Virus record (IMG/VR): IMGVR_UViG_3300013901_000006
Coordinates: 79,774-143,773 of that record
Strand: one strand, 5' to 3'
DNA: 64,000 bases
DNA from: a virus
Taxonomy: Duplodnaviria; Heunggongvirae; Uroviricota; Caudoviricetes
The notes below the pieces were generated by a model that made no database searches, had not been told where the DNA came from, and saw nothing but the letters and a program-made list of their open reading frames with translations. This document shows positions 644-50,012 of this stretch, one piece after another. The position numbers and the translations under genes are program-made. The number at the start of each line of letters is the position of its first letter. Within the stretch, counting starts at the first letter, position 1.

Positions 644-992
644 TTTTCACCAATCTCATGGTCATCGATATGCTTATATCGAGAAGCAATCTCTTGAGTC
701 TTACCATCGTTCCAGAAGTTAACTCCCACATCTTTAATACCCCTATTTTCATAGTATTTCAAAGGGAATAGACTATACCTTTTATTTATATAATTAAAAA
801 TATAAATAATCTCCATTATAGTCGTTGAACGTCTTTCTTATTATATAAGAAATTTCGCTGCGGATTACCTAATATTTGACGATTTTACCTTACCTTGGTC
901 ATTACCCTTGCCACTATTATATCACTATAATAGCTTGGTTGTCAAATCTCTAAAGGTGTTCCCGCAATTTAGAAGATTTTATGTGAGCCTGT

Positions 993-1976
993 TTAATTCG
1001 TTAACCCACAAGTACGTGCAGCGACGTCCATCTTGTCTGTGTCTGTATTACCGCAGTTAGAGCACTCCCACCACGTATTCCCATCGGTGTCTTTATGTAC
1101 ATCAATAGTCTGTGACTCGCCGCAAACGTGGCAATAGGAAGTCTTTGTATTAATCTCACAGTACATGATGTTATTATAAATACATTCTAGAATTGGATAC
1201 AGAACGGAAATATTCTTAGATACATCTGAACTTTCTACGTAACTTAGGCAACCTCCGACAGAATACTTCTGGAATTCGCCTTCAAGTTCAATCTTGGAGA
1301 ATGGGTCAATGGGTTGAGAACTCGGGATGTGATAAGAATTTTCAAAATACTTCTTGTTTCCAAATAGTTTCTTAAACTGGTCTGGATAACGTTCTTTGGT
1401 CTTAATCGCAAACTTGTAACATAATGATTCTGCTGGGGACGCATAAAGCGAATACCCTACGTTCTCTGCTTGTTTCCATTCTTCACACTTGTTTGTCAAG
1501 AACTTGAGAATTCGTAACATCAGCTCTTGTCCGTTTTTGGTGAAATTATCTTCACCAATGAGAATCTTAACTGCTTCGTTTCCTCCATTGTATCCAAGCG
1601 AGACTGTAGCATATCCATTGTGAACTAGCTTGTCTAGAGTCTCGTCTGGATCTAGTCTAGCTAAGGCTCCATCAACCCATAAGATTGGAGCTACGCCAGC
1701 TTTTGTTTTTGAAAGTCTATCAACTCGAACTTTTAGACCTGTGTGACAAATTTCAGCTCGTTCATCCAGTAATCTGAAAAAGATTTCAAGAAGATGTTCT
1801 TGAGATTTATCCCTGTCATATTTAAGTTCTTCTTGTGCGGCGAAAGCTGTATCTGGAAGATTCAGACTAGAAACGCCGCAATTGAATCGTCCATAATATT
1901 TTGGTTTACCATCTTCATCTAAATATGGAGATAGGAAACTTCTACAACCCCATGAATATTCTGTACAAAACGCCAC
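993..1976 (-). CDS. nrdD: Anaerobic ribonucleoside-triphosphate reductase, C-terminal exon (reading frame stays open upstream to ~2021)
   Basis: GCRSFL and GRFNCGVSSLNLP motifs typical of class III RNR. C-terminal Zn-ribbon cysteines and an RTCGL glycyl-radical-like motif. Frame is open upstream of the annotated GTG start. Confidence 0.75.
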   Translation of the reverse strand: MAFCTEYSWGCRSFLSPYLDEDGKPKYYGRFNCGVSSLNLPDTAFAAQEELKYDRDKSQEHLLEIFFRLLDERAEICHTGLKVRVDRLSKTKAGVAPILWVDGALARLDPDETLDKLVHNGYATVSLGYNGGNEAVKILIGEDNFTKNGQELMLRILKFLTNKCEEWKQAENVGYSLYASPAESLCYKFAIKTKERYPDQFKKLFGNKKYFENSYHIPSSQPIDPFSKIELEGEFQKYSVGGCLSYVESSDVSKNISVLYPILECIYNNIMYCEINTKTSYCHVCGESQTIDVHKDTDGNTWWECSNCGNTDTDKMDVAARTCGLTN

Positions 1977-2364
1977 TTTTGTATACGTTCTCTTATGAAC
2001 TGCTATATGTTTACATATAGATTAGACTATATCATATTCTTATTATTATAAGAATTTTTACATTTCGGTTATCTGTCGCTTATAACCTACGTCACATAAG
2101 GACTAGTCGTTAGGCTTTTATAGATATTGAATACTTTTAATCCCTCTGTTTAAATATCCTTTTGTTTTACTATTATAAACAACACCCTGTTCATTGACCA
2201 AATACCATGACCAATTAGGTATCTTTTTCACATATAATCACCTCCACATTTTCAGGAGGTTTCTTCAACATCTATTCTTAGCACGGTAAGTTATCTATAT
2301 TTTTATAGACTTTCTCCGTTTAGAAAAATTTGCTATCAATATCACTATTGAAAGGCACAGTTAA
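1977..2364 (-). mobile_element. Probable ORF-less group I intron interrupting nrdD (boundaries approximate)
   Basis: ~390 nt without an ORF between two halves of nrdD. The upstream exon ends at an in-frame stop. R-like CAGAGGGAUUA and S-like GACUAGUCC elements lie ~45 nt apart on the minus strand. Hairpins consistent with P9/P9.1. T4 nrdD (sunY) group I intron is a precedent. Confidence 0.5.
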
Positions 2365-3567
2365 TTAGTTTATGCAGGGGAAACAATGACCTTCGCCATT
2401 TGCATCTACCTTGATTTGCTTCATCACTTTCTCGCTGATATAATCAGGAGTTAAGCGTTTAGCAGAACATTCAACCGCTTTCTGAGTTACATGCCAGTAT
2501 TTAGTACCTGGCTTATAATTATCCTCTTCAAGAACATATAGTAGCTTAGGAAAAGCCTGAGTAACATATACACCTTGGCGATTCGGCATACCCTTTTCTC
2601 TCTGTTTTAGAAACTCTTTGATAAGAAGAACAAGTTCTTCTTTATATTCTTCTGTTTCGCCGATATACATAAATAAAGAGCAAAAAGGTGCCTGGCCGTT
2701 TAATGTAAACAGCGTTGAAATTTGATAATTAAAAGTTTGTACCGAATCTGCAATTTCTTTTTTTAAATCTGCAAGTGCAAACTTTTCTTTTAGTTCATCT
2801 GAAATATCTTCATTTTTATACTTGTTTTTGAAGATATTGTAACTATCACGAACGAAAGGAGCTAAATGAGTTAGTGTGATGGATTCTCCACCATAAGAAT
2901 TAGCTGCGACACTAGCCATAATCTGCGTAGTTACAGTCATAGCTGTTAAAAGACGATGCGGCTTATTGATGCGCACATTATTAATAACCGTGCCATTTTG
3001 CAGCATATCTTCTAGATTGATAAGGTCACAGTTATGAAGGGTTGATTGTGCCATATAATCCATATCATGTTGATGGCAGATACCAGCATCATGAGCTTCA
3101 ATGACTTTTTTAGGGAAAATATAATTGCGAGCAATATCTGTGCTTGTAATACCAGCTAGATAATCTCGTTGTACCGTAACAAGTTTAGCATTTTTATTGC
3201 TGTTCTCTGTAGCCCAATAACTTTCTGGGTCATTTTTAATCATATCAAGAATTTCAGCGTCATTATGTTTCTGACGCGCGAGTTGGTGCTCATAACGATA
3301 AATCATATAAGATTTAGCGACATGCGGATAATCTTCCATGAGCAATTCTTCAACCGCATCTTGAATCTCTTCAACAGTCATCTCATCATGGAAATATTCC
3401 GCATCTTGAAAATCTTGTGCGACATTTTTTGCTACGGAATGACAATCACTTTGTTCCCATCCAAGAGAATCAGAAACATCACGTGCCGCACGATAGACCG
3501 CATTTTCAATCTTAGACAAATCAAATTTTACTTTGCTTCCATTTCGTTTTGTAATATATCTAGTCAA
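2365..3567 (-). CDS. nrdD: Anaerobic ribonucleoside-triphosphate reductase, N-terminal exon (ATP-cone + N-terminal catalytic half)
   Basis: 400 aa. N-terminal ATP-cone-like region (VKFDLSKIENAVYRAA). Continuous with the downstream NrdD fragment on the same strand. Confidence 0.75.
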   Translation of the reverse strand: MTRYITKRNGSKVKFDLSKIENAVYRAARDVSDSLGWEQSDCHSVAKNVAQDFQDAEYFHDEMTVEEIQDAVEELLMEDYPHVAKSYMIYRYEHQLARQKHNDAEILDMIKNDPESYWATENSNKNAKLVTVQRDYLAGITSTDIARNYIFPKKVIEAHDAGICHQHDMDYMAQSTLHNCDLINLEDMLQNGTVINNVRINKPHRLLTAMTVTTQIMASVAANSYGGESITLTHLAPFVRDSYNIFKNKYKNEDISDELKEKFALADLKKEIADSVQTFNYQISTLFTLNGQAPFCSLFMYIGETEEYKEELVLLIKEFLKQREKGMPNRQGVYVTQAFPKLLYVLEEDNYKPGTKYWHVTQKAVECSAKRLTPDYISEKVMKQIKVDANGEGHCFPCIN

Positions 3568-30891: not shown

Positions 30892-32328
30892 TTAGATTGT
30901 ATACTTTTCCTCGATATAATCAACCAACTCTCCGCCATCTTCAACGTACTTAAGCATCTTAAATACATTGTCGTTGAGCGCGGTCATTAGATGCACATCA
31001 GGATTGTTCGAATTCACAATCTGAGTATGGTAATTTCCAAGGTCAAAGCTATAGAGAGTCGTGCGGCCATAGTTAGCGCAATACTCGTTATAAGAATACA
31101 TTGCCTTATCATATCCCACAGTAGGCCAAAAATATGAACGCTTATCCATTACCTGCATATCAGATACAACAAAAATGCGGTCATAATTCTTATTGCGAAT
31201 CATACCGAAAGCCGGAGCAATATCAGTACCATATCCGCAATGGTCATTATCACACATTTCACGAATAATCTGGAAAGGACCGGAAGCCTTAGCAAACGTC
31301 TTCGTCTTTGCATCGTTACCGAACTTCACAAAGTCACAGTTCCCATTGATATATAGGGCTGCTGCGTAGCAAGCCCCAACTTCCTTGATGGAAAGAGAAG
31401 ACTTGTCGCCATACATACCATCCATGGAGCCAGAAACGTCAAGCATGATAATAGAAGTTCCATCCAACTCAGGCATATTGCCGCAAGCAATACGGAAAGC
31501 GGTATCAAGAGCTGTAATCACTGCCATATTCTGAACACTGAGATTTCGATAGGCCGTATAAATCTGATAAGGGAACACAAGAGACTTGCGGATAGAGACT
31601 TCATTGATAATCTGGTCAACAAGATTCTTCTTGACCCAAACGTCATCAACGTCACTGTGTAGAATGTTGCTGAGATTGCGGATAAGGGCAAGATAACCAA
31701 GTTTATGTCCCTCTACAAGTTCCTTCCAACTAGTGGTACCAGTAGAAATACCAACTTCCCAAGTCTCAGGGGCAGCAAGAGTACCAGCCTTATACTTATC
31801 AATCGTCTCGCTATGAGCATGAGTAATATTGATAAGGTCATACATATTATACTGCTTACCGTTCATCTTATACTTAGCAATCTGATAATCACCAAGAGAA
31901 GAAAGATAATCAGCACAGCCACGAACCAGCGCATGAGAACGCCTGCCGCCAAGCATATCTACAGCTGCAAAAATCTCAGCTGGATCATCCGCGCGATGCA
32001 TGAAATTCTTATAGAACTCACGCTTCTGCTCAAACTTCTCAAAATTCAGGCGAGCTGCGACAAGCTGAGAAGCCGAACGCATACCAAGCTCATTACGCGC
32101 AAACTTAGCGCACTTGGCCGCAAACACAGGACCATAATGCTCAATGATAGCATCAGTCAGCTTGATAAAACGCTCCTGTTGCACATCTGCGGATTCATAG
32201 AAGGTATTACACATCTTAGACGAGAAAAGGAAATTCATCCACTCCTCGACAGGATTCTTTACATAATTAAGCCCACCCTCAAAAGAACGCTCACGAGAGG
32301 GCTTCACATTTTCATTAAACTTTGCCAT
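30892..32328 (-). CDS. rsr: Ro60/Rsr-like protein (TROVE domain + vWA with MIDAS motif)
   Basis: N-terminal SFEGGLNYV / CNTFYES resembles the Ro/Rsr GSDGGTYY region. MIDAS motif LDVSGSMDG at ~aa 300. 478 aa. Confidence 0.6.
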   Translation of the reverse strand: MAKFNENVKPSRERSFEGGLNYVKNPVEEWMNFLFSSKMCNTFYESADVQQERFIKLTDAIIEHYGPVFAAKCAKFARNELGMRSASQLVAARLNFEKFEQKREFYKNFMHRADDPAEIFAAVDMLGGRRSHALVRGCADYLSSLGDYQIAKYKMNGKQYNMYDLINITHAHSETIDKYKAGTLAAPETWEVGISTGTTSWKELVEGHKLGYLALIRNLSNILHSDVDDVWVKKNLVDQIINEVSIRKSLVFPYQIYTAYRNLSVQNMAVITALDTAFRIACGNMPELDGTSIIMLDVSGSMDGMYGDKSSLSIKEVGACYAAALYINGNCDFVKFGNDAKTKTFAKASGPFQIIREMCDNDHCGYGTDIAPAFGMIRNKNYDRIFVVSDMQVMDKRSYFWPTVGYDKAMYSYNEYCANYGRTTLYSFDLGNYHTQIVNSNNPDVHLMTALNDNVFKMLKYVEDGGELVDYIEEKYTI

Positions 32329-32494
32329 AACTACTTCTCTTTCTCTTGGAAGGAAATATACTTATAGGAATTAAATACTGGTATCTATGATTTGAACAAA
32401 AGCACATTTAAGAAGAAAGGATACCTTTATATTTAATTCCTATAGGCATGTTTCCACACCTAAAATAAAATAAAATGAGGAGATGTTAAAAACA

Positions 32495-32600
32495 GTACAC
32501 AAAAGATACCGACCTACCCGACGCAATGTCTGCGAAGGACGGAGTTGAACCGCCTTTCCGCATTTTCAAGGTGAAGTAACTGTTTTTCTATCACTCATTT
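32495..32600 (-). ncRNA. Y-RNA-like tRNA-like small RNA (copy R) with own promoter and terminator, adjacent to rsr
   Basis: 5' box AUGAGUGAUAGAAAAACAGUUACUUC shared with two other copies. T-arm GGCGG-UUCAACU-CCGUC. Terminal helix AAAAACAGU(U)AC / GU-ACUGUUUUU followed by a U-rich tract. Confidence 0.5.
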
Positions 32601-32605
32601 TGTAA

Positions 32606-32634
32606 TTATATTATACAATATAAATTTTTAAAAG
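32606..32634 (-). promoter_or_regulatory. TTGACT-17-TATAAT promoter positioned to start transcription at the 5' box of copy R
   Basis: Minus strand: TTGACT (32634-32629), 17-nt spacer, TATAAT (32611-32606). Predicted +1 at about 32598. Confidence 0.5.
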
Positions 32635-32883
32635 TCAATAAAAATTTTTAAAAGATTTTTATTTTTCTAATATCTTCATCGTCACCTGTATAATCATACC
32701 AAGTGACACACACTAAAAAGAATTCGTTTTCAGGAGATTCAGCCCATTCACAATAACTACGATATGCAATATAGGCTTCATCTAAATCATCCGTTTCTGT
32801 ACTATCTATAACAGTACCATCAGTAATGCAAGCCTGTACAATAAAATCGTAAGGCTCTTCCATTAGAGCAAGAAAATCACCCA

Positions 32884-35194: not shown

Positions 35195-36133
35195 TTAGTT
35201 GTTACTATTGGTCAGAATATATTCACGAATAGCCGCTTGCGCCAAACCTTTAATCTTTGCAAGATTAACACTGGTAACCTTCTTCTTACGATAAAAGTCC
35301 CAGAAATTCTCTTCCATAAGCTCGTTCAAAACTTTTTGCATACACATACCGAAGAATTTACCATTGCGGCAATCAATTTCATCCATATCGAGAGCGATAA
35401 GAACTTTATTAACTTCCTTTTCGACAAAAGCAGGCGTACAAAACTTATCTACAAACTCTTTTTCAGTATCATTTTGGTTGACATTGGTCTTCTTAGTGGT
35501 TTTATTATGATGCCATTCATCGCGTACAATTTTAGCAACTTGTGGATTTCCCCACGGGTCACGAAGAACTGGATAAGTTTTAATAACAATACCTTCACCA
35601 ATAATACCAGAAGGAAGATTAAAAGTACAAGAATCTACATACTTATCAACATCATCCCAAGTCATATTATCAATGCGGGCAATGATAGGAACGCAACGAT
35701 GATAAATTTTACTTACTACTGGATACCATACATCATAATCAATATATTCACCGCTGTCAGTATCAAAAACATCAAAGATAAAGAAACCACCTTCAATATA
35801 CTGTTTAATGCTACCGACAAACTTGCGGCCATCCACTCCGCCAAGCCATTCACCATAAATAATATAGCTAGGATTGTCAAGCAACCAATCCTTTAAAGCA
35901 TTGATTTCAGTGTCATTAGAATTTGTAATATAGTATGCAAATCCAGCATTATCCTTCTCAATAGAAATCTCACGGGTACGAGAGCCACACGCAATTTTGC
36001 CCTCATCATCTACCCAAATGCTGGAATTGCTTCCGTCCATTTTCGGCTGAATTAAAACCGACTTACCAATGAAACCCTGAACTTCATTGCGAGTAGAGCG
36101 TTCAAGATGAATGTACTTGTTGAAATGTGACAT
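35195..36133 (-). CDS. RNA ligase, Rnl2-like nucleotidyltransferase
   Basis: Motif I KMDGSN (Rnl2 K-x-[DH]-G-x-N). Motif IV EGIVIK, then a VAKIVRD motif-V-like segment. Confidence 0.5.
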   Translation of the reverse strand: MSHFNKYIHLERSTRNEVQGFIGKSVLIQPKMDGSNSSIWVDDEGKIACGSRTREISIEKDNAGFAYYITNSNDTEINALKDWLLDNPSYIIYGEWLGGVDGRKFVGSIKQYIEGGFFIFDVFDTDSGEYIDYDVWYPVVSKIYHRCVPIIARIDNMTWDDVDKYVDSCTFNLPSGIIGEGIVIKTYPVLRDPWGNPQVAKIVRDEWHHNKTTKKTNVNQNDTEKEFVDKFCTPAFVEKEVNKVLIALDMDEIDCRNGKFFGMCMQKVLNELMEENFWDFYRKKKVTSVNLAKIKGLAQAAIREYILTNSNN

Positions 36134-37083: not shown

Positions 37084-37605
37084 ATGAAGCACACGTTAAT
37101 TATGATGGCAGGCCCTGCGAGTTCAGGAAAATCTGTATTTGCAAAAATCATTAAAGATTCACATGATGATTGCGTTGTAGTTTCATATAAACAGATGGCA
37201 AAAGCAGCACTGGTCGCAAAAGAACCGCAACATTATGTAGATAAGCGATATATCGAAGTATTAAATAATATGCTTGAAACACATGAATATGTAATTGCTG
37301 ATAATTACAATATCAATGCAAATGAACGCAAAAAAATATTTGACAATATAAATATTGATAAATATAATATTATTTGTGTTTGGGTGGAAACGCCTCTTAA
37401 TGTTGCATTGAAGCGAAATGCACAACTAGATGAAAAGTGGCGAAGGTCGGAAGACTCTATAAAGCAAATGTATAAAATTAAAGTATCGCCGCAAGAACAA
37501 GAGCCTTTTAAAAAAGTAATTTTCATTTCAGAGCAAATGAATTATGCTATTGGAACAGATACAATGGAAATTCAAAATATTTTAGATACTCTTAAGGCTC
37601 TATAG
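37084..37605 (+). CDS. Polynucleotide-kinase-like P-loop kinase (T4 Pnk kinase-domain family), copy 1
   Basis: MMAGPASSGKSVFA Walker A. IADNYNINANERKKIF and VWVETPLNVALKRNAQ align to T4 Pnk ISDTNLNPERRLAW / VFDVPWTELVKRNSKRG. Confidence 0.5.
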   Translation: MKHTLIMMAGPASSGKSVFAKIIKDSHDDCVVVSYKQMAKAALVAKEPQHYVDKRYIEVLNNMLETHEYVIADNYNINANERKKIFDNINIDKYNIICVWVETPLNVALKRNAQLDEKWRRSEDSIKQMYKIKVSPQEQEPFKKVIFISEQMNYAIGTDTMEIQNILDTLKAL

Positions 37606-39538: not shown

Positions 39539-40108
39539 ATGATTACTCAATATTCTCATGGTATCAATACAGAAGCAAATCCAAGCAACAATGTAATTGA
39601 TATTTATAAAAAGTGGAGCGCGGAAGAAGTGCGGGCTAGCCTTCAACCAAATCGTACTCCACTTGTAAATATTTGTCTCAATCTTGACCATGGATTCAAC
39701 GTTGGTTCTATTATTCGAGCATCAAATTGTTTCCTTGCCAAGGAGACTTACGTGGTTGGCCGCAAACGCTTTGACGCTCGTGGAGGTGTTGGATCCAAAA
39801 AATACGAACGCGTATATCATGCAGATACATTAGATGAAGTCCTTGAAGTTCTGCACCCTCTTGGATATACCATTTTTGCCGTAGATAATGTAGAAGAATA
39901 TAATCCGCAGAATATTTTTGATGTTGATATTCCAATGAAGTCTGCTTTCGTATATGGAAGTGAGGGTAATGGTTTGCCAAAAGATGCTATTGACAAATGC
40001 GATGAAATGGTATATATTAGGCAATATGGAAGTATTCGCTCACTAAATGTGGCACAAGCTGCCGCATGTTGTATGATGGAATATTCTAGACGTTATCAAA
40101 TGAGGTAG
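39539..40108 (+). CDS. SpoU/TrmH-family RNA 2'-O-methyltransferase (SPOUT)
   Basis: NICLNLDHGFNVGSIIRASNCF, YGSEGNGLPKDAI, and IRQYGSIRSLNVAQAAACCMMEY match SPOUT motifs I-III. Confidence 0.65.
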   Translation: MITQYSHGINTEANPSNNVIDIYKKWSAEEVRASLQPNRTPLVNICLNLDHGFNVGSIIRASNCFLAKETYVVGRKRFDARGGVGSKKYERVYHADTLDEVLEVLHPLGYTIFAVDNVEEYNPQNIFDVDIPMKSAFVYGSEGNGLPKDAIDKCDEMVYIRQYGSIRSLNVAQAAACCMMEYSRRYQMR

Positions 40109-41625: not shown

Positions 41626-42561
41626 ATGAATGAAGTAGATATGCTCCGCAATGATTCTCTTGTGCGGGAAAAGGATTTGGGAAACGGAATCTCGTCTTTC
41701 AATTTTTCCAATAAGTGCTTTTGGGATAAGAAGTGGACTACGGAGTCAATCAAGGCTCGCGGATTATTCTGTGATGTTAAAAATAACAATGTTGTTGCAC
41801 GTTCTTATAATAAGTTTTTCAATATTGGAGAGCGTCCTGAGACTGAAATGCGGAATCTTCGTACTACTTTTGCATATCCTGTGCAGGCATATGTGAAGTA
41901 TAATGGTTTTTTGGCAATCGTCTCAGCAGATAAGGATAATCCCGATAAGTTGTTCATCGCATCCAAGAGCACTAATGAAGGCCAGTTTGCGGGATACATT
42001 AAAAACATTATTAACTCTATGTTGAGCGAAGATGCGCAAAAGGATTTTGCAAACACCTTGCATAATCTTAATATCTCTGCTGTGTTTGAGTGTATTGACC
42101 AAGCGCATGACACGCATATTGTAGAATATTTCAGTCCGCATTTAGTTATGCTTGATTGTATTTATAATTCCTTTGAATATAAGCACATGTCATATGAGAA
42201 TATGAGAGAATTTGCATGTAAGTTTGGTTTTTTGTTTAAGGTTCGTTTTTCCATTTTAACAGATTGGGAAGATTTTACAAGTTTTATTGATTGGCATAAG
42301 GATGATAATGGGATTGAAGGATTTGTGTTTGAAGATGCTAATGGGTTCATGGTAAAGTATAAAACTTTATGGTATCGTTACTGGAAGCAGGTGCGTGGCG
42401 TTTTGCAGCAGGTCTGGAACGGACGTGATATTGATTCAATCAAGAATATCAATAACAAGATTAAGCCAGAGCACAAGCAGCCGCTTCTTGATTTCGTAGC
42501 TTCATGCCGCAATCGTGATGCGTGTCCATCAGTAATTGAATTCCGCAACTCTTTATCTTAA
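41626..42561 (+). CDS. RNA ligase of tRNA-ligase (Trl1/KxNG) type
   Basis: Motif I VKYNGF (K-x-N-G). Motif IV IEGFVFE. Motif V VKYKTLWY. 311 aa. Confidence 0.5.
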   Translation: MNEVDMLRNDSLVREKDLGNGISSFNFSNKCFWDKKWTTESIKARGLFCDVKNNNVVARSYNKFFNIGERPETEMRNLRTTFAYPVQAYVKYNGFLAIVSADKDNPDKLFIASKSTNEGQFAGYIKNIINSMLSEDAQKDFANTLHNLNISAVFECIDQAHDTHIVEYFSPHLVMLDCIYNSFEYKHMSYENMREFACKFGFLFKVRFSILTDWEDFTSFIDWHKDDNGIEGFVFEDANGFMVKYKTLWYRYWKQVRGVLQQVWNGRDIDSIKNINNKIKPEHKQPLLDFVASCRNRDACPSVIEFRNSLS

Positions 42562-46170: not shown

Positions 46171-46240
46171 GCCAGTTTAGTATAACAGTAATACATCGCT
46201 CTTGTAAAGCGAAGCAGACAGGGCAGCACTGTCAACTGGC
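46171..46240 (+). tRNA. tRNA-Thr (anticodon TGT)-like gene with non-canonical D- and T-loops
   Basis: Perfect acceptor GCCAGTT/AACTGGC + TCCA. D stem GTAT/ATAC. Anticodon stem TCGCT/AGCGA with loop CTTGTAA. T stem GACAG/CTGTC, but the T loop is GGCAGCA and the D loop lacks GG. Confidence 0.45.
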
Positions 46241-46481
46241 TCCAATATTTTAGTATTCTATGAGGATAATATAAAAGGAGATTCGACCACTCCAAGCAAT
46301 GCACTTGTATTATTCTCATAGAGTGCTAACCTTAGACACTCTCCAAGTGATAGTAGAGCGGAATTTGACCCCGTCTGTGCTATCCCAAGTTATAAGCGAT
46401 TCGGGCAGTCGCTATACAAATTTGCCCACTTTAGATTATTAGATAGGCTACATAGGGAGTAGCTACCTCATGGAAAAGTGA

Positions 46482-47857: not shown

Positions 47858-47980
47858 ATGCGTGATAGGGATTCAGTTACTTCATATCAATAGCAGAGAT
47901 ATAGGCTGTCGGTTCGAATCCGACCATCTACGGATGTAGCTCAACAGGTAGAGCGATGTCATTTTATAGTCTGAATCCAA
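47858..47980 (+). ncRNA. Y-RNA-like tRNA-like RNA, copy A (closing helix + T-arm + acceptor-like hairpin + D-arm)
   Basis: 5' box AUGCGUGAUAGGGAUUCAGUUACUUC. GGAUUCAG (47869-76) pairs with CUGAAUCC (47971-78). Enclosed: GUCGG-UUCGAAU-CCGAC, CUACGGAUGUAG, and GCUC-AACAGGUA-GAGC. Confidence 0.5.
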
Positions 47981-48204
47981 GATTTCCGCATATTTTTTCT
48001 TGACTTTTGGTTATATATATTATATAATATATTTAGTTCAAAGGAGATAACATGAAATACTGCATTTGCCGTGAAAAAACTACGCATTGCCTGTCTATTC
48101 GAGTTGATACTGACTGCTCGCCTGTACGCTTTGATGTACTTTCCATTCATGACACTTTCGAAGAGGCAGATGCGGCACTTCGTTTTTATCTTGATTAATC
48201 TATT

Positions 48205-48290
48205 TTATAGATAGATTAATTTGAACATTCCGCAGCCAGAGCCAATCTGGACCGCCGCATACTTGAAAGGAAGCGGGTTTGAATGTTTTA
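48205..48290 (+). ncRNA. Candidate small structured RNA between a 48-aa ORF and tRNA-Lys
   Basis: Terminal pairing GAACAUUC/GAAUGUUU encloses hairpins CCAGA-gccaat-UCUGG and CCGC-N14-GCGG. Speculative. Confidence 0.25.
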
Positions 48291-48291
48291 T

Positions 48292-48364
48292 GCGCCCTTA
48301 GCTTAGTTGGTAAAGCGGTGGACTCTTAATCCAAAGACCGTCAGTTCGAATCTGACAGGACGCA
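48292..48364 (+). tRNA. tRNA-Lys (anticodon CTT), two non-Watson-Crick pairs
   Basis: Acceptor GCGCCCT/AGGACGC (C4·A69). D GCTT-AGTTGGTA-AAGC. Anticodon stem GTGGA/TCCAA (G27·A43) with loop CTCTTAA. T arm GTCAG-TTCGAAT-CTGAC. Confidence 0.5.
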
Positions 48365-48379
48365 CCTATTTTATTTCGC

Positions 48380-48452
48380 TCGTCTGTAGTTCAGCTGGTA
48401 GAACATTTGGCTGTTAACCAAAATGTCGTAGGTTCGAGTCCTACCGGACGAG
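48380..48452 (+). tRNA. tRNA-Asn (anticodon GTT)
   Basis: Acceptor TCGTCTG/CGGACGA. D GTTC-AGCTGGTA-GAAC. Anticodon stem TTTGG/CCAAA with loop CTGTTAA. T arm GTAGG-TTCGAGT-CCTAC. Confidence 0.7.
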
Positions 48453-48465
48453 CAAAATAAAATAT

Positions 48466-48494
48466 TTGACAAAATCATTTCGGTAGTATATAAT
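48466..48494 (+). promoter_or_regulatory. TTGACA-17-TATAAT promoter for a ~150-nt non-coding transcript
   Basis: TTGACA aaatcatttcggtagta TATAAT. No ORF until 48683. Confidence 0.5.
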
Positions 48495-48499
48495 ATAAA

Positions 48500-48655
48500 T
48501 ATAAAATAACAAGTCTTCAAGAATCTTAACTCATACGGTTTGGCCGTCGATAGAGGAACTACTAAGGACGGGACACCTGAATGCTAGCTAATACAGGGAG
48601 CAGACAGCCAGTATTGTTCTTGATGTAATCGAATGAGCTATCTTGTTGTTTTATA
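48500..48655 (+). ncRNA. Candidate structured small RNA (~150 nt)
   Basis: Ends pair (AUAACAAG / CUUGUUGUUUU) followed by a U-tract. Internal helices CCGUC/GACGG, CUCAU/AUGAG, GCUAGC. Confidence 0.35.
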
Positions 48656-49349
48656 TTTATATTATTGGTCGAAAGGTTTCAAATGAAATTATATCTGAAA
48701 CACTATACTAACAAAATTTTATGGTCAGAGCCAAAAGATGATGATGAAGCATATAAAGATATTCAAAATTGGTTAACAGAACATTATCCAATTAATCATT
48801 ATATGCGGCATTGGGTAGATAATGCTGGTGTTCATTGGATTGATTTTGGTTCGCACACAGATTTCTTTTGCATTGAAGGAGAGTAGGCAATGTCTTACAA
48901 CAAGGAAGAAGATTTGAAGTTGAAATACGCTTATATTCCCGATGATGCGGCAAATGCCCCTGCTTCTAAAAAGAAGAAGCCGTCTCCTAAGAAAGCCAAC
49001 CATAAACATAATTATGATAAAAGTATTATCATCAATTATTATGATAAATATACTGGTAAGTGGACCTATTCATATAGGAATATCTGCACTGTTTGCGGCC
49101 GCATTGGTGATTTTAAAGATAAAGATGGAATCATCGCAAAGACTTTCCCGCACATCGGTACTTGTTGGTTTGGCTTTTCTGTTGCTTTTGGATATAATGC
49201 AGAATTTGAGGAGTTTACCGAATGGTCAAAAACTTGGTATCCTGTAATTGTTTGGAAAGACTATCAGCCTTTATCAGATAAGTTTATTCCTAACGAGTTT
49301 TTTGATGAACTTAAAATCGGAACAGATAAAGTAGATTAATAATGTACCT

Positions 49350-49434
49350 CGGGAGTTGATGGAATTGGCATACATAGCGGCCTCAAAAGCCGTCGGTTAT
49401 TGTAACCATACGAGTTCGAATCTCGTACTCCCGA
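49350..49434 (+). tRNA. tRNA-Leu (anticodon CAA), class II with long variable arm, CCA encoded
   Basis: Acceptor CGGGAGT/ACTCCCG-A-CCA. D loop GAATTGGCATA. Anticodon stem GCGGC/GCCGT with loop CTCAAAA. Variable arm GGTTA-TTG-TAACC. T arm ACGAG-TTCGAAT-CTCGT. Confidence 0.7.
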
Positions 49435-49442
49435 CCAGAACT

Positions 49443-49525
49443 GCTACGGTATCCCATTAAAGACATGGACCGGCCTGTAAAATCGGTACCTTAAGGTTGA
49501 CTAGGAGCGTTACCTAGACGTAGCA
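49443..49525 (+). tRNA. tRNA-Tyr (anticodon GTA)-like class II gene with non-canonical T-loop, CCA encoded
   Basis: Acceptor GCTACGG/ACGTAGC (G7·A66). Anticodon loop CTGTAAA is identical to bacterial tRNA-Tyr. Variable arm ACC-TTAA-GGT. T stem CTAGG/CCTAG but loop AGCGTTA. D loop lacks GG. Confidence 0.4.
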
Positions 49526-49541
49526 CCAATTGTATTTTATA

Positions 49542-49616
49542 ATGCGTGACAGAAAATCAGTTACTTCTATTTTAAAAATAAGATATTGGTTCGATTCCAA
49601 TTACCGCATAAAAACT
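49542..49616 (+). ncRNA. Y-RNA-like tRNA-like RNA, copy B (minimal: closing helix + hairpin + T-arm)
   Basis: 5' box AUGCGUGACAGAAAAUCAGUUACUUC. GAAAAUCAGUU (49552-62) pairs with AACUGAUUUU (49605-14). T-arm AUUGG-UUCGAUU-CCAAU. Confidence 0.45.
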
Positions 49617-49659
49617 GATTTTAGTATTTCCGCGTTTAATTTTTATTCTGGTATGTGAT

Positions 49660-49930
49660 TGAGTTTTAGTTACTTCGAAGATATATATTATGTTTTAAAT
49701 TAATTAAAATTTAAATTAAAAGAACCGGCTTTTACGTCAGACTATAACGGCGTAACAAAAAACTGGTAACTTATACTAAAACTAGTATTTCCATACCTTC
49801 CTCTTTCTCTTGGATAAGTGATTGAACCGCATAGTTACTTCATATTTTTGGTATAATATAATTCAGTCTATGTGATATTATTTCCTTATCTTAAACATTT
49901 TGCGTGATTGGTTCAAGAGATACTTCATAA
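49660..49930 (+). repeat. Three decayed partial copies of the GUGAU...AGUUACUUC 5' box
   Basis: GTGATTGAGTTTTAGTTACTTC (~49657), GTGATTGAACCGCATAGTTACTTCATAT (~49822), TGCGTGATTGGTTCAAGAGATACTTCAT (~49893). None has a following T-arm. Confidence 0.4.
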
Positions 49931-49984
49931 ATATTTTATGACATTTTTTTTTTGCTCTCTCTTGGGCATACTTTCCGCTTTAAT

Positions 49985-50012
49985 AGGGCCTTATGGCCCT
50001 ATTTTTTTTTAT
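49985..50012 (+). terminator. Intrinsic terminator (AGGGCC-ttat-GGCCCT + T9) fused to a TTGACT promoter
   Basis: Hairpin plus T-run directly followed by TTGACT-N17-TATAAT. Confidence 0.6.

What the first reader, a model, noticed from the sequence alone, without database searches (positions are those of the whole stretch)
47858..49930. Dispersed family of YrlA-like RNAs: closing helix + T-arm + acceptor-like hairpin + D-arm in permuted order, sharing a conserved 5' box
Three full copies exist: R at 32495-32600 (minus), A at 47858-47980, B at 49542-49616. They share a ~28-nt 5' box AUG(C/A)GUGAyAGnnnAwnCAGUUACUUC followed 20-30 nt later by a canonical T-arm (GGUUCGAwUCC). In copy A the box's GGAUUCAG pairs with CUGAAUCC ~100 nt downstream. 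That helix encloses, in order, a T-arm, a CUACGGAUGUAG hairpin, and a D-arm (GCUC-AACAGGUA-GAGC). This is tRNA-like but not foldable as a cloverleaf. It matches the permuted tRNA-mimic design described for bacterial YrlA Y RNAs. Copy B is a minimal version, and three decayed 5'-box fragments lie at 49.66-49.93 kb. The box also reads as a conserved mini-ORF (MRDRDSVTSYQ / MRDRKSVTS... / MSDRKTVTSP), but it has no Shine-Dalgarno.
Basis: seen in the sequence. Interest (0 to 1): 0.85.

Follow-up and report, generated by a model that had tools for sequence, protein, structure and literature searches.

The report
Phage Y RNAs partnering Ro60
Six small structured RNAs in this phage genome are divergent relatives of bacterial YrlA "Y RNAs", the partners of the Ro60 protein that the phage also encodes; the kind is known, but this version has its own binding-site signature and forms tandem arrays in a tRNA operon.

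Summary

- **Copies.** The window has six complete copies, not three plus three "decayed fragments": R 32475-32598(-), A 47858-47991, B 49542-49635, C 49651-49796, D 49813-49890, E 49900-49980.
- **Shared base.** P1 (5 bp), bulged U, G-C/A-U, loop, P2 (8-9 bp), UUACUUC, variable insert, P2', ...UUUC, P1'.
- **Covariation.** Both helices covary across 105 distinct elements from about 40 related phage loci.
- **Inserts.** Copy A's insert is a permuted tRNA-like domain (T-arm, capped acceptor hairpin, UA, D-arm, anticodon-stem closure, Levitt pair). B has only a T-arm, R a T-arm plus a hairpin. C-E carry other inserts.
- **Ro60 link.** Copy R lies directly upstream of a TROVE/Ro60 gene (30892-32328, minus). 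In relatives 38-56% identical, 1-4 such RNAs sit in tandem just upstream of that gene.
- **Not a strict member.** Rfam YrlA is the best hit everywhere but reaches only 25-39 bits (threshold 69). The canonical GNCGAA motif is replaced by GUGAUNG.
- **Mini-ORF rejected.** Its ATG is part of covarying P1.

Verdict: a new variant of a known kind. Ro60 binding and expression are inferred, not shown.

The parts
32475..32598 (-). Copy R. P1 ATGAG/CTCAT, 5' loop UGAUAG, P2 AAAAACAG/CUGUUUUU, UUACUUC, and 3' loop AACAUCUC. The insert has a T-arm (32538-32554) and a hairpin (32522-32534) but no clear D-arm.
   Evidence: (MFE z = -2.55)
32610..32638 (-). Sigma-70-type promoter (TTGACT-17-TATAAT, 11/12). 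It places the transcript start a few nt before P1 of copy R. No terminator separates R from the TROVE gene.
30892..32328 (-). TROVE/Ro60 homolog, 478 aa. This is the inferred protein partner of the RNA family.
   Evidence: - Pfam TROVE: 48 bits against a cut-off of 23.
- phrog_850 'RNA-binding protein': E 7.5e-32 over the full length.
- PDB 9KOP/9L5Y (Thermus phage Ro60): E 3e-23.
- D297-x-S299-x-S301 is invariant in the alignment.
47858..47991 (+). Copy A, the full YrlA-type element.

- P1: 47858-47862 with 47987-47991
- 5' loop UGAUAG: 47863-47868
- P2: 47869-47876 with 47971-47978
- UUACUUC: 47877-47883
- Positions 39-43 (GAUAU): 47898-47902
- Variable loop AGGCU: 47903-47907
- T-arm: 47908-47924
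- Acceptor-like hairpin CAUC(UACG)GAUG: 47925-47936
- UA plus D-arm: 47937-47954
- G26 plus positions 27-31 (AUGUC): 47955-47960
- 3' loop AAGAUUUC: 47979-47986
   Evidence: (z = -2.43)
49542..49635 (+). Copy B. It has the base module plus a T-arm only (49585-49601). P1 is ATGCG/CGCGU with a U.G wobble; the 98%-identical relative has CGCAU at the same place.
   Evidence: (z = -2.15)
49651..49796 (+). Copy C. Base module (GUAUG/CAUAC, AGUUUUAG/CUAAAACU) with a 99-nt insert that is not tRNA-like.
   Evidence: (z = -3.82)
49813..49890 (+). Copy D. A minimal element with a 26-nt insert. P1 is GAUAAG/CUUAUC. P2 is imperfect in the window but passes the finder in the 98% relatives L048 and L060.
49900..49980 (+). 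Copy E. P2 is GUUCAAGAG/CUCUUGGGC with two G.U pairs, the junction motif is AUACUUC and the 3' loop is AUACUUUC. P1 is only 3 bp. It is the last element before the operon terminator.
   Evidence: (z = -3.01)
49982..50003 (+). Intrinsic-terminator-like hairpin plus T-run that closes the tRNA / Y-like RNA operon.
48466..48494 (+). 12/12 consensus promoter, the likely start of the transcript that carries two ORFs, tRNA-Leu, the tRNA-Tyr-like gene and copies B-E.
   Evidence: the synteny is conserved in L077
32339..32360 (-). TROVE mRNA leader UAUAUUUCC-UUCCAAGAGAAAG. It repeats the 3' half-motif (UAUUUC|C) of the RNA family beside a small hairpin. Relatives also carry the 5' half-motif GUGAUNN just before the AUG. 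It is a possible self-binding site.
   Evidence: inspection only

Best explanation
These are phage-encoded Y RNAs, the small non-coding RNA partners of the phage's own Ro60 (TROVE) protein.

**Structure.** Each RNA pairs its 5' and 3' ends into a conserved bulged helix. The order is P1, a bulged U, G-C and A-U pairs, an asymmetric loop, then P2, followed by UUACUUC on the 5' side and ...UUUC on the 3' side. I infer that this helix is the Ro60 docking site. It is analogous to the bulged helix of animal Y RNAs and to the GNCGAA stem of bacterial YrlA.

**Apical inserts.** The tip of the helix carries an interchangeable module.
- In copy A, and in the TROVE-adjacent RNA of most relatives, it is a tRNA look-alike: T-arm, capped acceptor stem, D-arm and an anticodon-stem analogue, with no anticodon loop and no CCA end.
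- In B it is a T-arm alone.
- In C-E it is an unrelated short hairpin.

**Proposed action.** By analogy with Rsr-YrlA and with the Thermus phage Ro60-Yrl complex, the base tethers or gates Ro60, and the apical module recruits a second factor. That factor could be a tRNA-binding enzyme or an exonuclease such as host PNPase. Different paralogs would then direct Ro60 to different partners during infection. The setting is an RNA-repair and tRNA gene neighbourhood.

**Shown here:** the fold, its covariation, the tRNA mimicry, and the conserved linkage to TROVE.

**Inferred:** transcription and processing into discrete RNAs, Ro60 binding at the base, and the effector.
For: 1. **Repeat family well above chance.** The window has 5 clean elements plus D, against 0.09 in shuffled windows.
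2. **Structure test from the 5' box alone.** 30 of 60 distinct boxes have a perfect two-helix partner downstream, against 0.19 after shuffling. 23 of them also carry a 3' TTC motif that the search did not use, against 0.0.
3. **Covariation in the base.** All 13 base pairs show compensatory changes, with 31 distinct P1 and 48 distinct P2 sequences.
4. **Independent consensus fold.** RNAalifold on 13 full-type RNAs recovers P1, the bulged U, GA/UC, P2, T-arm, acceptor hairpin and D-arm. 22 of 30 pairs are compensatory.
5. **Selection on RNA, not duplex DNA.** With symmetric acceptance, G.U outnumbers A.C 26 to 7 (p = 0.0013). 53 of 55 boxes in TROVE-oriented loci lie on the TROVE strand. The four minus-strand elements in the later 99:4 count come from DNA-pattern-fetched loci with no gene orientation.
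6. **tRNA-exact geometry.** A 5-nt variable loop, one nucleotide at position 26, and pairing of 39-43 with 27-31 hold in 7 of 8 parsed relatives. The Levitt pair is A15:U48 (12) or G15:C48 (2) in cores that lie inside a base module, with no mismatch.
7. **YrlA is the best Rfam hit.** This holds for the window and for relatives.
8. **TROVE gene next to copy R.** Relatives at 38-56% identity, and MAG contigs, have 1-4 tandem elements within 500 nt upstream of TROVE on the same strand.
9. **Protein-blind co-occurrence.** A DNA-pattern scan of 2.9 million viral contigs returned 10 contigs. 9 of them encode TROVE in the stretch fetched.
10. **Precedent.** YrlA RNAs lie beside Ro60 genes in bacteria and phages (PMC4201824). 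A phage Ro60 binds two upstream Yrl RNAs and host PNPase (PMC12135203).
Against: - There are no expression data and no binding data.
- The Rfam YrlA scores (25-39 bits) are well below the gathering score of 69.
- The published Ro60-contact motif GNCGAAN0-1G is absent and GUGAUNG stands in its place, so the docking site is inferred by position and architecture only.
- Four of the six window copies lack a tRNA-like domain.
- In the closest diverged relatives (about 70% TROVE identity) no element lies next to TROVE. Their elements are 12-17 kb away in the tRNA island.
- Nearly all genomes carrying the family belong to one phage clade, so co-occurrence with TROVE could partly reflect shared descent.
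- The base alignment used for the pair counts was assembled from elements selected for pairing. One search is therefore not an independent test; and one search are the fairer ones.
Confidence: 0.8

Rival explanations
1. They are RNA processing or stability elements of the polycistronic tRNA operon and of the TROVE mRNA. In this reading they are conserved stem-loops cut or bound by a nuclease (RNase III-type or RNase E/Y-type sites, as in T7 early mRNAs), and have no dedicated role with Ro60.
For: - Copies B-E lie head to tail inside one promoter-to-terminator unit, directly after two tRNA genes. They must therefore be cut out of a longer transcript.
- Copy R lies between a promoter and the TROVE ORF with no terminator.
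- The irregular helix with a conserved internal loop is the general shape of such sites (my own knowledge).
Against: - A processing site does not need a tRNA-exact apical domain with a covarying Levitt pair.
- YrlA is the best Rfam match.
- The elements keep their place next to TROVE in diverged genomes whose neighbouring genes differ.
- A protein-blind DNA scan returns almost only TROVE-encoding contigs.
Confidence: 0.08
2. They are tRNA-derived decoys or substrates that act without Ro60. They could be baits for host anticodon nucleases or other tRNA-targeting defences, or guides and substrates for the phage's own RNA ligases, kinase or methyltransferase.
For: - The neighbourhood holds an Rnl2-like ligase, a P-loop polynucleotide-kinase-like protein, a SpoU/TrmH-type methyltransferase, an Rnl1-type ligase and 8 tRNA genes.
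- Phage RNA repair as a counter-defence is well documented (PMC7824862).
Against: - The tRNA-like forms lack an anticodon loop, which is the target of anticodon nucleases.
- Most family members have no tRNA-like part at all (22 of 105 have a T-loop), yet all keep the base module. The conserved function therefore resides in the base.
- The base is what tracks the TROVE gene.
Confidence: 0.07
3. They are DNA-level repeats: miniature inverted-repeat mobile elements, recombination sites, or duplicated promoter/terminator DNA. Under this reading the palindromes matter as DNA.
For: - P1 and P2 are inverted repeats.
- Copy number varies from 1 to 7 between close relatives. Some arrays look recombined, with chimeric P1 ends.
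- Copy D's insert contains a TGGTATAAT -10-like string.
Against: - The helices change sequence freely while staying paired.
- G.U outnumbers A.C 26 to 7, which a duplex-DNA palindrome would not show.
- The elements show a strong strand bias relative to neighbouring genes.
- The unpaired motifs (UGAU, UUACUUC, UUUC) are asymmetric and conserved.
Confidence: 0.03
4. The 5' box encodes a conserved micro-peptide (MRDRDSVTSYQ and similar).
For: Copies A, B and R begin with ATG and read through the box in one frame.
Against: - The ATG is the first three bases of helix P1, which covaries with its 3' partner. Only 4 of 31 distinct P1 sequences start with ATG.
- Copies C, D and E in the same window have GUAUG, AUAAG and UUGCG.
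- There is no Shine-Dalgarno sequence.
- Sequence downstream of the box is not conserved in any frame.
Confidence: 0.01

Closest known systems
YrlA (Rfam RF02553), the bacterial and phage Y RNA-like tRNA mimics of Chen et al. 2014 (PMC4201824). Structure: Wang et al. 2018 (bioRxiv 10.1101/312249).
   Same: - It is encoded beside a Ro60/TROVE gene.
- The 5' and 3' ends pair into a two-helix stem with an asymmetric internal loop.
- A conserved YUAY (here UUAC) follows the second helix.
- The apical domain runs T-arm, variable-length capped acceptor stem, UA, D-arm, and is closed by an anticodon-stem analogue.
- The D-arm is UAGCUCA..GGUAGAGC.
- The Levitt pair is A15:U48 or G15:C48.
- There is no anticodon loop and no CCA end.
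   Different: - The score is 25-39 bits against a gathering score of 69.
- The 5' motif is GUGAUNG, not GNCGAAN0-1G.
- The 3' strand carries a conserved ...AUUUC|C.
- UUACUUC is invariant over 7 nt.
- Each genome has up to 7 paralogs, most of them without a tRNA-like domain.
- The arrays are embedded in a tRNA operon.
Yrl1 and Yrl2 of Thermus phage phiLo, with phiRo60 (PMC12135203; PDB 9KOP, 9L5Y)
   Same: - It is a phage-encoded Ro60 with two Y-like RNAs in tandem directly upstream of the gene.
- The layout is stem, bulge, stem.
- This protein is the best solved-structure match of the window protein (E 3e-23).
   Different: - The phiLo RNAs were identified through a CGAA motif, which is absent here.
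- The proteins share only about 25% identity.
- No tRNA-operon arrays are reported for phiLo.
Metazoan Y RNAs and D. radiodurans Yrn1
   Same: - The Ro60 site is a terminal helix with a single bulged pyrimidine on the 5' strand, followed by G and A (animal GGUC-C-GA; here NNNNG-U-GA).
- The other end of the RNA is a modular effector-binding region.
- Each genome has several paralogs.
   Different: - There is no detectable sequence homology, and no Rfam Y_RNA hit at E <= 5.
- The resemblance of the bulged helix is by eye and from my own knowledge of Stein et al. 2005 and Green et al. 1998. It has not been tested.
The bacterial rsr-yrlBA-rtcBA RNA repair operon (PMC7790460)
   Same: Ro60 and Y RNAs are linked on the genome to RNA ligase and RNA end-healing genes and to tRNA metabolism.
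   Different: - The ligases here are ATP-dependent Rnl1 and Rnl2 types, not RtcB.
- No RtcR-type regulator was seen.

Membership tests
YrlA (RF02553) | Encoded adjacent to a Ro60/TROVE gene | tested here: met
   - Copy R ends 147 nt upstream of the TROVE start codon on the same strand.
- Relatives carry 1-4 elements within 500 nt upstream.
- Copies A-E are 15-18 kb away.
- The 70%-identity group has none next to TROVE.
YrlA (RF02553) | tRNA-like domain in permuted order: T stem-loop, acceptor-like stem-loop of variable sequence, UA, D stem-loop, closed by an anticodon-stem analogue | tested here: met
   - Copy A meets it, as do about 15 relatives.
- Copies B-E do not.
- Copy R meets it only in part (T-arm and hairpin, no D-arm).
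YrlA (RF02553) | tRNA tertiary-interaction nucleotides, including a Levitt pair that is G15:C48 or A15:U48 | tested here: met
   - Copy A has U8, A14, A15, G18, G19, A21, U54-U55-C56, A58 and U48.
- Cores that lie inside a base module give 12 A:U and 2 G:C with no mismatch.
- The A:C cases in that output are adjacent true tRNA genes.
YrlA (RF02553) | 5' motif GNCGAAN0-1G, the proposed Ro60 contact | tested here: not met
   - The invariant motif is G-UGA-Y-N-R, for example GUGAUGG or GUGAUAG.
- The distant relative L053 has AGCGCAG in two of its three elements, which looks intermediate.
YrlA (RF02553) | Conserved YUAY after the stem, at the start of the V region (the kink-forming UA) | tested here: met
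   UUAC or AUAC of UUACUUC directly follows the 5' strand of P2 in all 105 elements. It aligns with CUA in the Rfam consensus.
YrlA (RF02553) | Score at or above Rfam's gathering threshold of 69 bits | tested here: not met
   31.8 bits for copy A; 39 and 25.2 bits for relatives.
YrlA (RF02553) | Bound by Ro60, and modified by TruB or DusA in vivo | not testable with these tools
   This needs RIP, EMSA and modification mapping.
Y RNA (functional class) | 5' and 3' ends pair into a conserved bulged helix that docks Ro60, with a second variable module for effectors | tested here: inconclusive
   The architecture is predicted and covaries. That it docks Ro60 is inferred from gene linkage only.
Ro60 / TROVE protein | TROVE domain above Pfam's threshold, plus a C-terminal vWA-type MIDAS motif (DxSxS) | tested here: met
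   - Pfam PF05731: 48 bits against a cut-off of 23.
- D297, S299 and S301 are invariant in 10 homologs.
- Best solved-structure match is the phage Ro60 structures, E 3e-23.

The most novel reading that the evidence does not exclude
The conserved base may be a general display scaffold. On it, this phage clade would swap apical RNA modules (a full tRNA mimic, a T-arm alone, a tRNA in standard order, or unrelated hairpins) to give one Ro60 ring several specificities.

Ro60 would also sense the pool of these RNAs through a miniature copy of the same site in its own mRNA leader, which would amount to translational autoregulation.

Because the arrays sit inside tRNA operons directly after tRNA genes, they could also be a living example of the proposed birth of Y RNAs from multimeric tRNA transcripts.
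Probability: 0.2. Interest if true: 0.75.

Novelty: new variant of a known kind. Interest (0 to 1): 0.5.

Why it matters
**What is already known.** Ro60-Y RNA particles are conserved from bacteria to humans and are a major lupus and Sjogren autoantigen. What the bacterial and phage versions do is still largely open.

**What this clade adds.**
- It is a large, uncultivated clade of roughly 140-kb gut phages, probably infecting Bacillota. More than 1000 Ro60 homologs turned up.
- Its Y RNAs escape the current Rfam model.
- It shows which parts of the Ro60-docking helix are truly constrained: a bulged pyrimidine followed by GA, YUAY, and a pyrimidine-rich 3' strand.
- It shows that the effector module is freely exchangeable on a fixed base.
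- It ties Y RNAs physically to tRNA operons and to RNA-repair genes.

**Practical use.** The motif defined here could seed a new covariance model, which would improve annotation of phage and gut metagenomes.

**Limit.** The concept itself, a phage Ro60 with tRNA-like Y RNAs, has been published since 2014. This extends it and does not open a new category.

Tried and rejected
- **Megablast.** The 6-kb RNA island found nothing in 50,697 phage records, so there is no annotated close relative.
- **First box pattern.** It had the wrong spacing and missed the copies. Corrected.
- **First element finder.** It was too lax for AT-rich DNA: 40 control hits against 78 real. I replaced it with strict and box-only tests.
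- **70% group, minus-strand box hits.** These matches 1.3-3.5 kb from TROVE proved to be chance matches inside coding sequence.
- **Covariance model.** MAFFT shifted the 3' half of the short elements (A4), so I built no model and used a structure-aware scan with shuffled controls.
- **Generic 'permuted tRNA core' regex.** It also caught adjacent true tRNA genes that share an acceptor sequence. Those were excluded from the Levitt count.
- **NCBI names.** Three homologs are only 'hypothetical protein', so no host or taxon name came from that route.
- **Permuted tRNA gene idea.** I considered that copy A is a circularly permuted tRNA gene matured by the phage RNA ligases. I rejected it because the acceptor hairpin is 4-9 bp and varies in length, there is no anticodon loop, and the ends are locked in the conserved base.
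- **k-turn or box C/D reading of GUGAUGA.** Rejected, because the 3' strand has no GA/CUGA partner.
- **Other intergenic stretches.** 48205-48291 and 48500-48649 do not fold better than shuffles (z = -0.9 and -0.25).


Full report
**1. What is in the sequence**

The window is AT-rich (35.6% GC) and phage-like, and has no close match among annotated phages.

Reading further 3' shows that every copy is closed by two nested helices with conserved unpaired motifs. The layout is:

- P1, 5 bp, with a G-C top pair
- 5' loop UGAYNR
- P2, 8-9 bp
- UUACUUC
- a variable insert
- P2'
- a 3' loop of about 8 nt ending in UUUC
- P1'

The three '5'-box fragments' at 49.66-49.93 kb have this full architecture too. 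The window therefore holds six elements:

| Copy | Coordinates | Note |
|---|---|---|
| R | 32475-32598 (-) | T-arm plus a hairpin |
| A | 47858-47991 | full tRNA-like insert |
| B | 49542-49635 | T-arm only |
| C | 49651-49796 | 99-nt insert, not tRNA-like |
| D | 49813-49890 | P2 imperfect here, clean in the 98% relative |
| E | 49900-49980 | P1 only 3 bp |

Shuffled windows give 0.09 such elements. MFE folds recover P1, a bulged U, GA/UC pairs and P2 in A, B, D, E and R; in C the MFE keeps P1, the bulged U and GA/UC but pairs the P2 strand with an alternative AU-rich partner. The z-scores run from -1.2 to -3.8.

**2. The protein next door**

The 478-aa ORF at 30892-32328 (-) lies 147 nt downstream of copy R on the same strand.

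- It has a TROVE domain (48 bits against a cut-off of 23).
- It matches phrog_850 'RNA-binding protein' over its full length.
- Its best solved-structure match is the Ro60 of Thermus phage phiLo (E 3e-23). That protein is known to bind two upstream Y-like RNAs and host PNPase (PMC12135203).
- A DxSxS MIDAS motif is invariant among homologs.

Copy R has an 11/12 promoter that ends about 12 nt before P1, and no terminator before the ORF.

**3. Relatives**

The protein has more than 1000 homologs, mostly on metagenomic contigs of about 140 kb. I fetched 45 viral loci, 28 loci anchored on the Rnl1-type ligase, 13 loci from a protein-blind DNA pattern and 4 MAG loci.

- In phages with 38-56% TROVE identity, and in 'uncultured Bacilli' MAG contigs, 1-4 elements sit in tandem within 500 nt upstream of TROVE on the same strand.
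- In the 70%-identity group none lies next to TROVE. Arrays of 4-7 elements occupy the position syntenic with the window's A and B-E. They come after tRNA-Leu and a tRNA-Tyr-like gene and before a terminator.
- The protein-blind pattern scan of 2.9 million viral contigs returned 10 contigs. Nine of them encode TROVE in the stretch fetched.

**4. Is the structure real?**

- Starting from the 5' box alone, 30 of 60 distinct boxes have a perfect P1 plus P2 partner downstream (0.19 after shuffling). 23 of them also end the 3' loop in TTC, a motif the search did not use (0.0 after shuffling).
- On a fixed-register base alignment, all 13 pairs show changes on both sides. That alignment was selected for pairing, so it illustrates the result and does not prove it.
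- RNAalifold on 13 full-type RNAs, given no model, predicts P1, the bulged U, G-C/A-U, P2, T-arm, acceptor hairpin and D-arm. 22 of 30 pairs are compensatory.
- Across 105 distinct elements there are 31 distinct P1 and 48 distinct P2 sequences.
- When G.U and A.C are accepted on equal terms, G.U outnumbers A.C 26 to 7 (p = 0.0013). In loci oriented by TROVE, 53 of 55 boxes lie on the gene's strand; of 103 non-window elements, 99 read as plus-strand, and the four minus-strand cases are all in pattern-fetched loci with no gene orientation. The pairing is therefore selected in RNA of one strand and not in duplex DNA.
- Between the window and its 98% sibling, the one substitution in B's P1' (CGCAU to CGCGU) keeps the pair as U.G.

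**5. The inserts**

The inserts run from 15 to 207 nt; in the 105-element set they run from 15 to 146 nt with a median of 37.

Copy A's insert matches tRNA position by position:

- 39-43 GAUAU
- a 5-nt variable loop AGGCU
- T-arm GUCGG-UUCGAAU-CCGAC
- a 4-bp acceptor stem capped by a UACG tetraloop
- U8-A9
- D-arm GCUC-AACAGGUA-GAGC
- G26
- 27-31 AUGUC

The 39-43 with 27-31 closure, in exactly this register, holds in 7 of 8 parsed relatives, and the sequences differ. The Levitt pair is A15:U48 (12) or G15:C48 (2) in cores that lie inside a base module. This is the criterion Chen et al. used for YrlA (PMC4201824).

The acceptor-like hairpin varies from 4 to 9 bp and once carries a 142-nt insertion. 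B keeps only a T-arm, R keeps a T-arm and a hairpin, and C-E have unrelated inserts. At the syntenic position of A, the 70% group has the same base with a different insert that is not tRNA-like. The base is constant and the tip is exchangeable.

**6. Comparison with the known family**

YrlA RNAs beside Ro60 genes were reported in more than 250 bacteria and phages in 2014 (PMC4201824). The crystal structure shows a tRNA L-shape with a capped acceptor stem, no anticodon loop, and a conserved UA kink (bioRxiv 10.1101/312249).

- Shared features: linkage to Ro60, the permuted tRNA-like domain, UA before the D-arm, the D-arm sequence, the Levitt pair, YUAY after the stem (here UUAC), and a two-helix terminal stem with an asymmetric loop.
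- Not shared: the Rfam score (25-39 bits against 69) and the GNCGAAN0-1G motif (here GUGAUNG).
- A very distant relative (L053, 25% TROVE identity) keeps UUACUUC and CUUUUUC but has AGCGCAG in two of its three 5' loops. This looks like a bridge to the canonical motif.
- By eye, the predicted 'stem, bulged pyrimidine, GA' resembles the animal Ro60 site GGUC-C-GA. That comparison rests on my memory of Stein et al. 2005 and is a lead, not a test.

**7. Mechanism**

My best-supported reading, at confidence 0.8, is that these are Y RNAs of the phage Ro60. The base would dock the protein and the insert would recruit a second factor. The genomic setting is RNA repair: an Rnl2-like ligase, a P-loop kinase, a SpoU methyltransferase, an Rnl1-type ligase and tRNAs. 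This parallels the bacterial rsr-yrlBA-rtcBA operon (PMC7790460) and the phage RNA-repair theme (PMC7824862).

Transcription, processing, Ro60 binding and the effector are all inferred. The rivals are weaker, for the reasons given in their entries: processing sites, Ro60-independent decoys, DNA repeats and a micro-ORF. The micro-ORF is excluded because its ATG is part of covarying P1.

**8. Verdict**

It is a new variant of a known kind: a clade-wide Y RNA family that Rfam misses, with its own docking-site signature, modular tips and tRNA-operon arrays. I score interest at 0.5.

Noticed in passing
window 49443-49528 (+): An unannotated tRNA-Tyr(GUA)-like gene with an encoded CCA lies between tRNA-Leu and copy B. 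ARAGORN and Rfam both miss it.

- 17 distinct versions in relatives show compensatory changes in the acceptor and anticodon stems.
- The D-loop (UAAAGAC) lacks G18-G19.
- The T-loop is RGCGKUA, not UUCRANY. The usual elbow contacts therefore seem to be replaced.
   Followed up: partly
window 32339-32360 (-); L004 9955-9995; L034, L035, L037, L025 upstream of TROVE: TROVE mRNA leaders carry a miniature, circularly permuted copy of the family's internal loop (UUUUC|C, small hairpin, G|UGAUNN) ending a few nt before the AUG. In other relatives the last tandem element abuts the Shine-Dalgarno sequence. This suggests that Ro60 autoregulates its own translation.
   Followed up: partly
L027 9634-9765; L036 2111-2241: Two elements carry a tRNA-like insert in the ordinary gene order (acceptor, D-arm, anticodon arm, T-arm, acceptor) inside the same conserved base. 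The scaffold can therefore also hold an unpermuted tRNA.
   Followed up: no
L028 9405-9658: A full-type element whose acceptor-like hairpin carries a 142-nt insertion. The otherwise identical element in L027 has a 27-nt hairpin.
   Followed up: no
window 750-1078 (-) and 2003-2109 (-): A group I intron scores above Rfam's threshold (56.3 bits), and a second match is weaker (27.6 bits). They lie within and between the two halves of an anaerobic ribonucleotide reductase (NrdD) gene, which is split into ORFs 993-1976 and 2365-3567.
   Followed up: no
window 46171-46241 (+): A tRNA called by Rfam (44.9 bits) but not by ARAGORN.
   Followed up: no
window 35195-36133 (-), 37084-37605, 39539-40108, 41626-42561 (+): An RNA repair and modification gene set lies around the Ro60 locus: an Rnl2-like RNA ligase, a P-loop kinase with weak similarity to the tRNA-ligase kinase domain, a SpoU/TrmH-type methyltransferase, and a T4 Rnl1-type RNA ligase.
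   Followed up: partly
window 49849-49857 (+), inside copy D: The 26-nt insert of copy D contains TGGTATAAT, an extended -10-like string. It may be an internal promoter or may be a coincidence in AT-rich sequence.
   Followed up: no
L061 13012-13181: [quoted passage not shown] ARAGORN calls only the second (tRNA-Asn). This is the kind of dimeric tRNA arrangement proposed as the ancestor of YrlA (bioRxiv 10.1101/312249).
   Followed up: partly
L053 11940-12410: In a GC-richer phage whose TROVE is only 25% identical, three elements follow the TROVE gene and are interleaved with a tRNA. Two have AGCGCAG and one has UGUGACAG in the 5' loop. All three keep UUACUUC or AUACUUC and CUUUUUC.
   Followed up: partly
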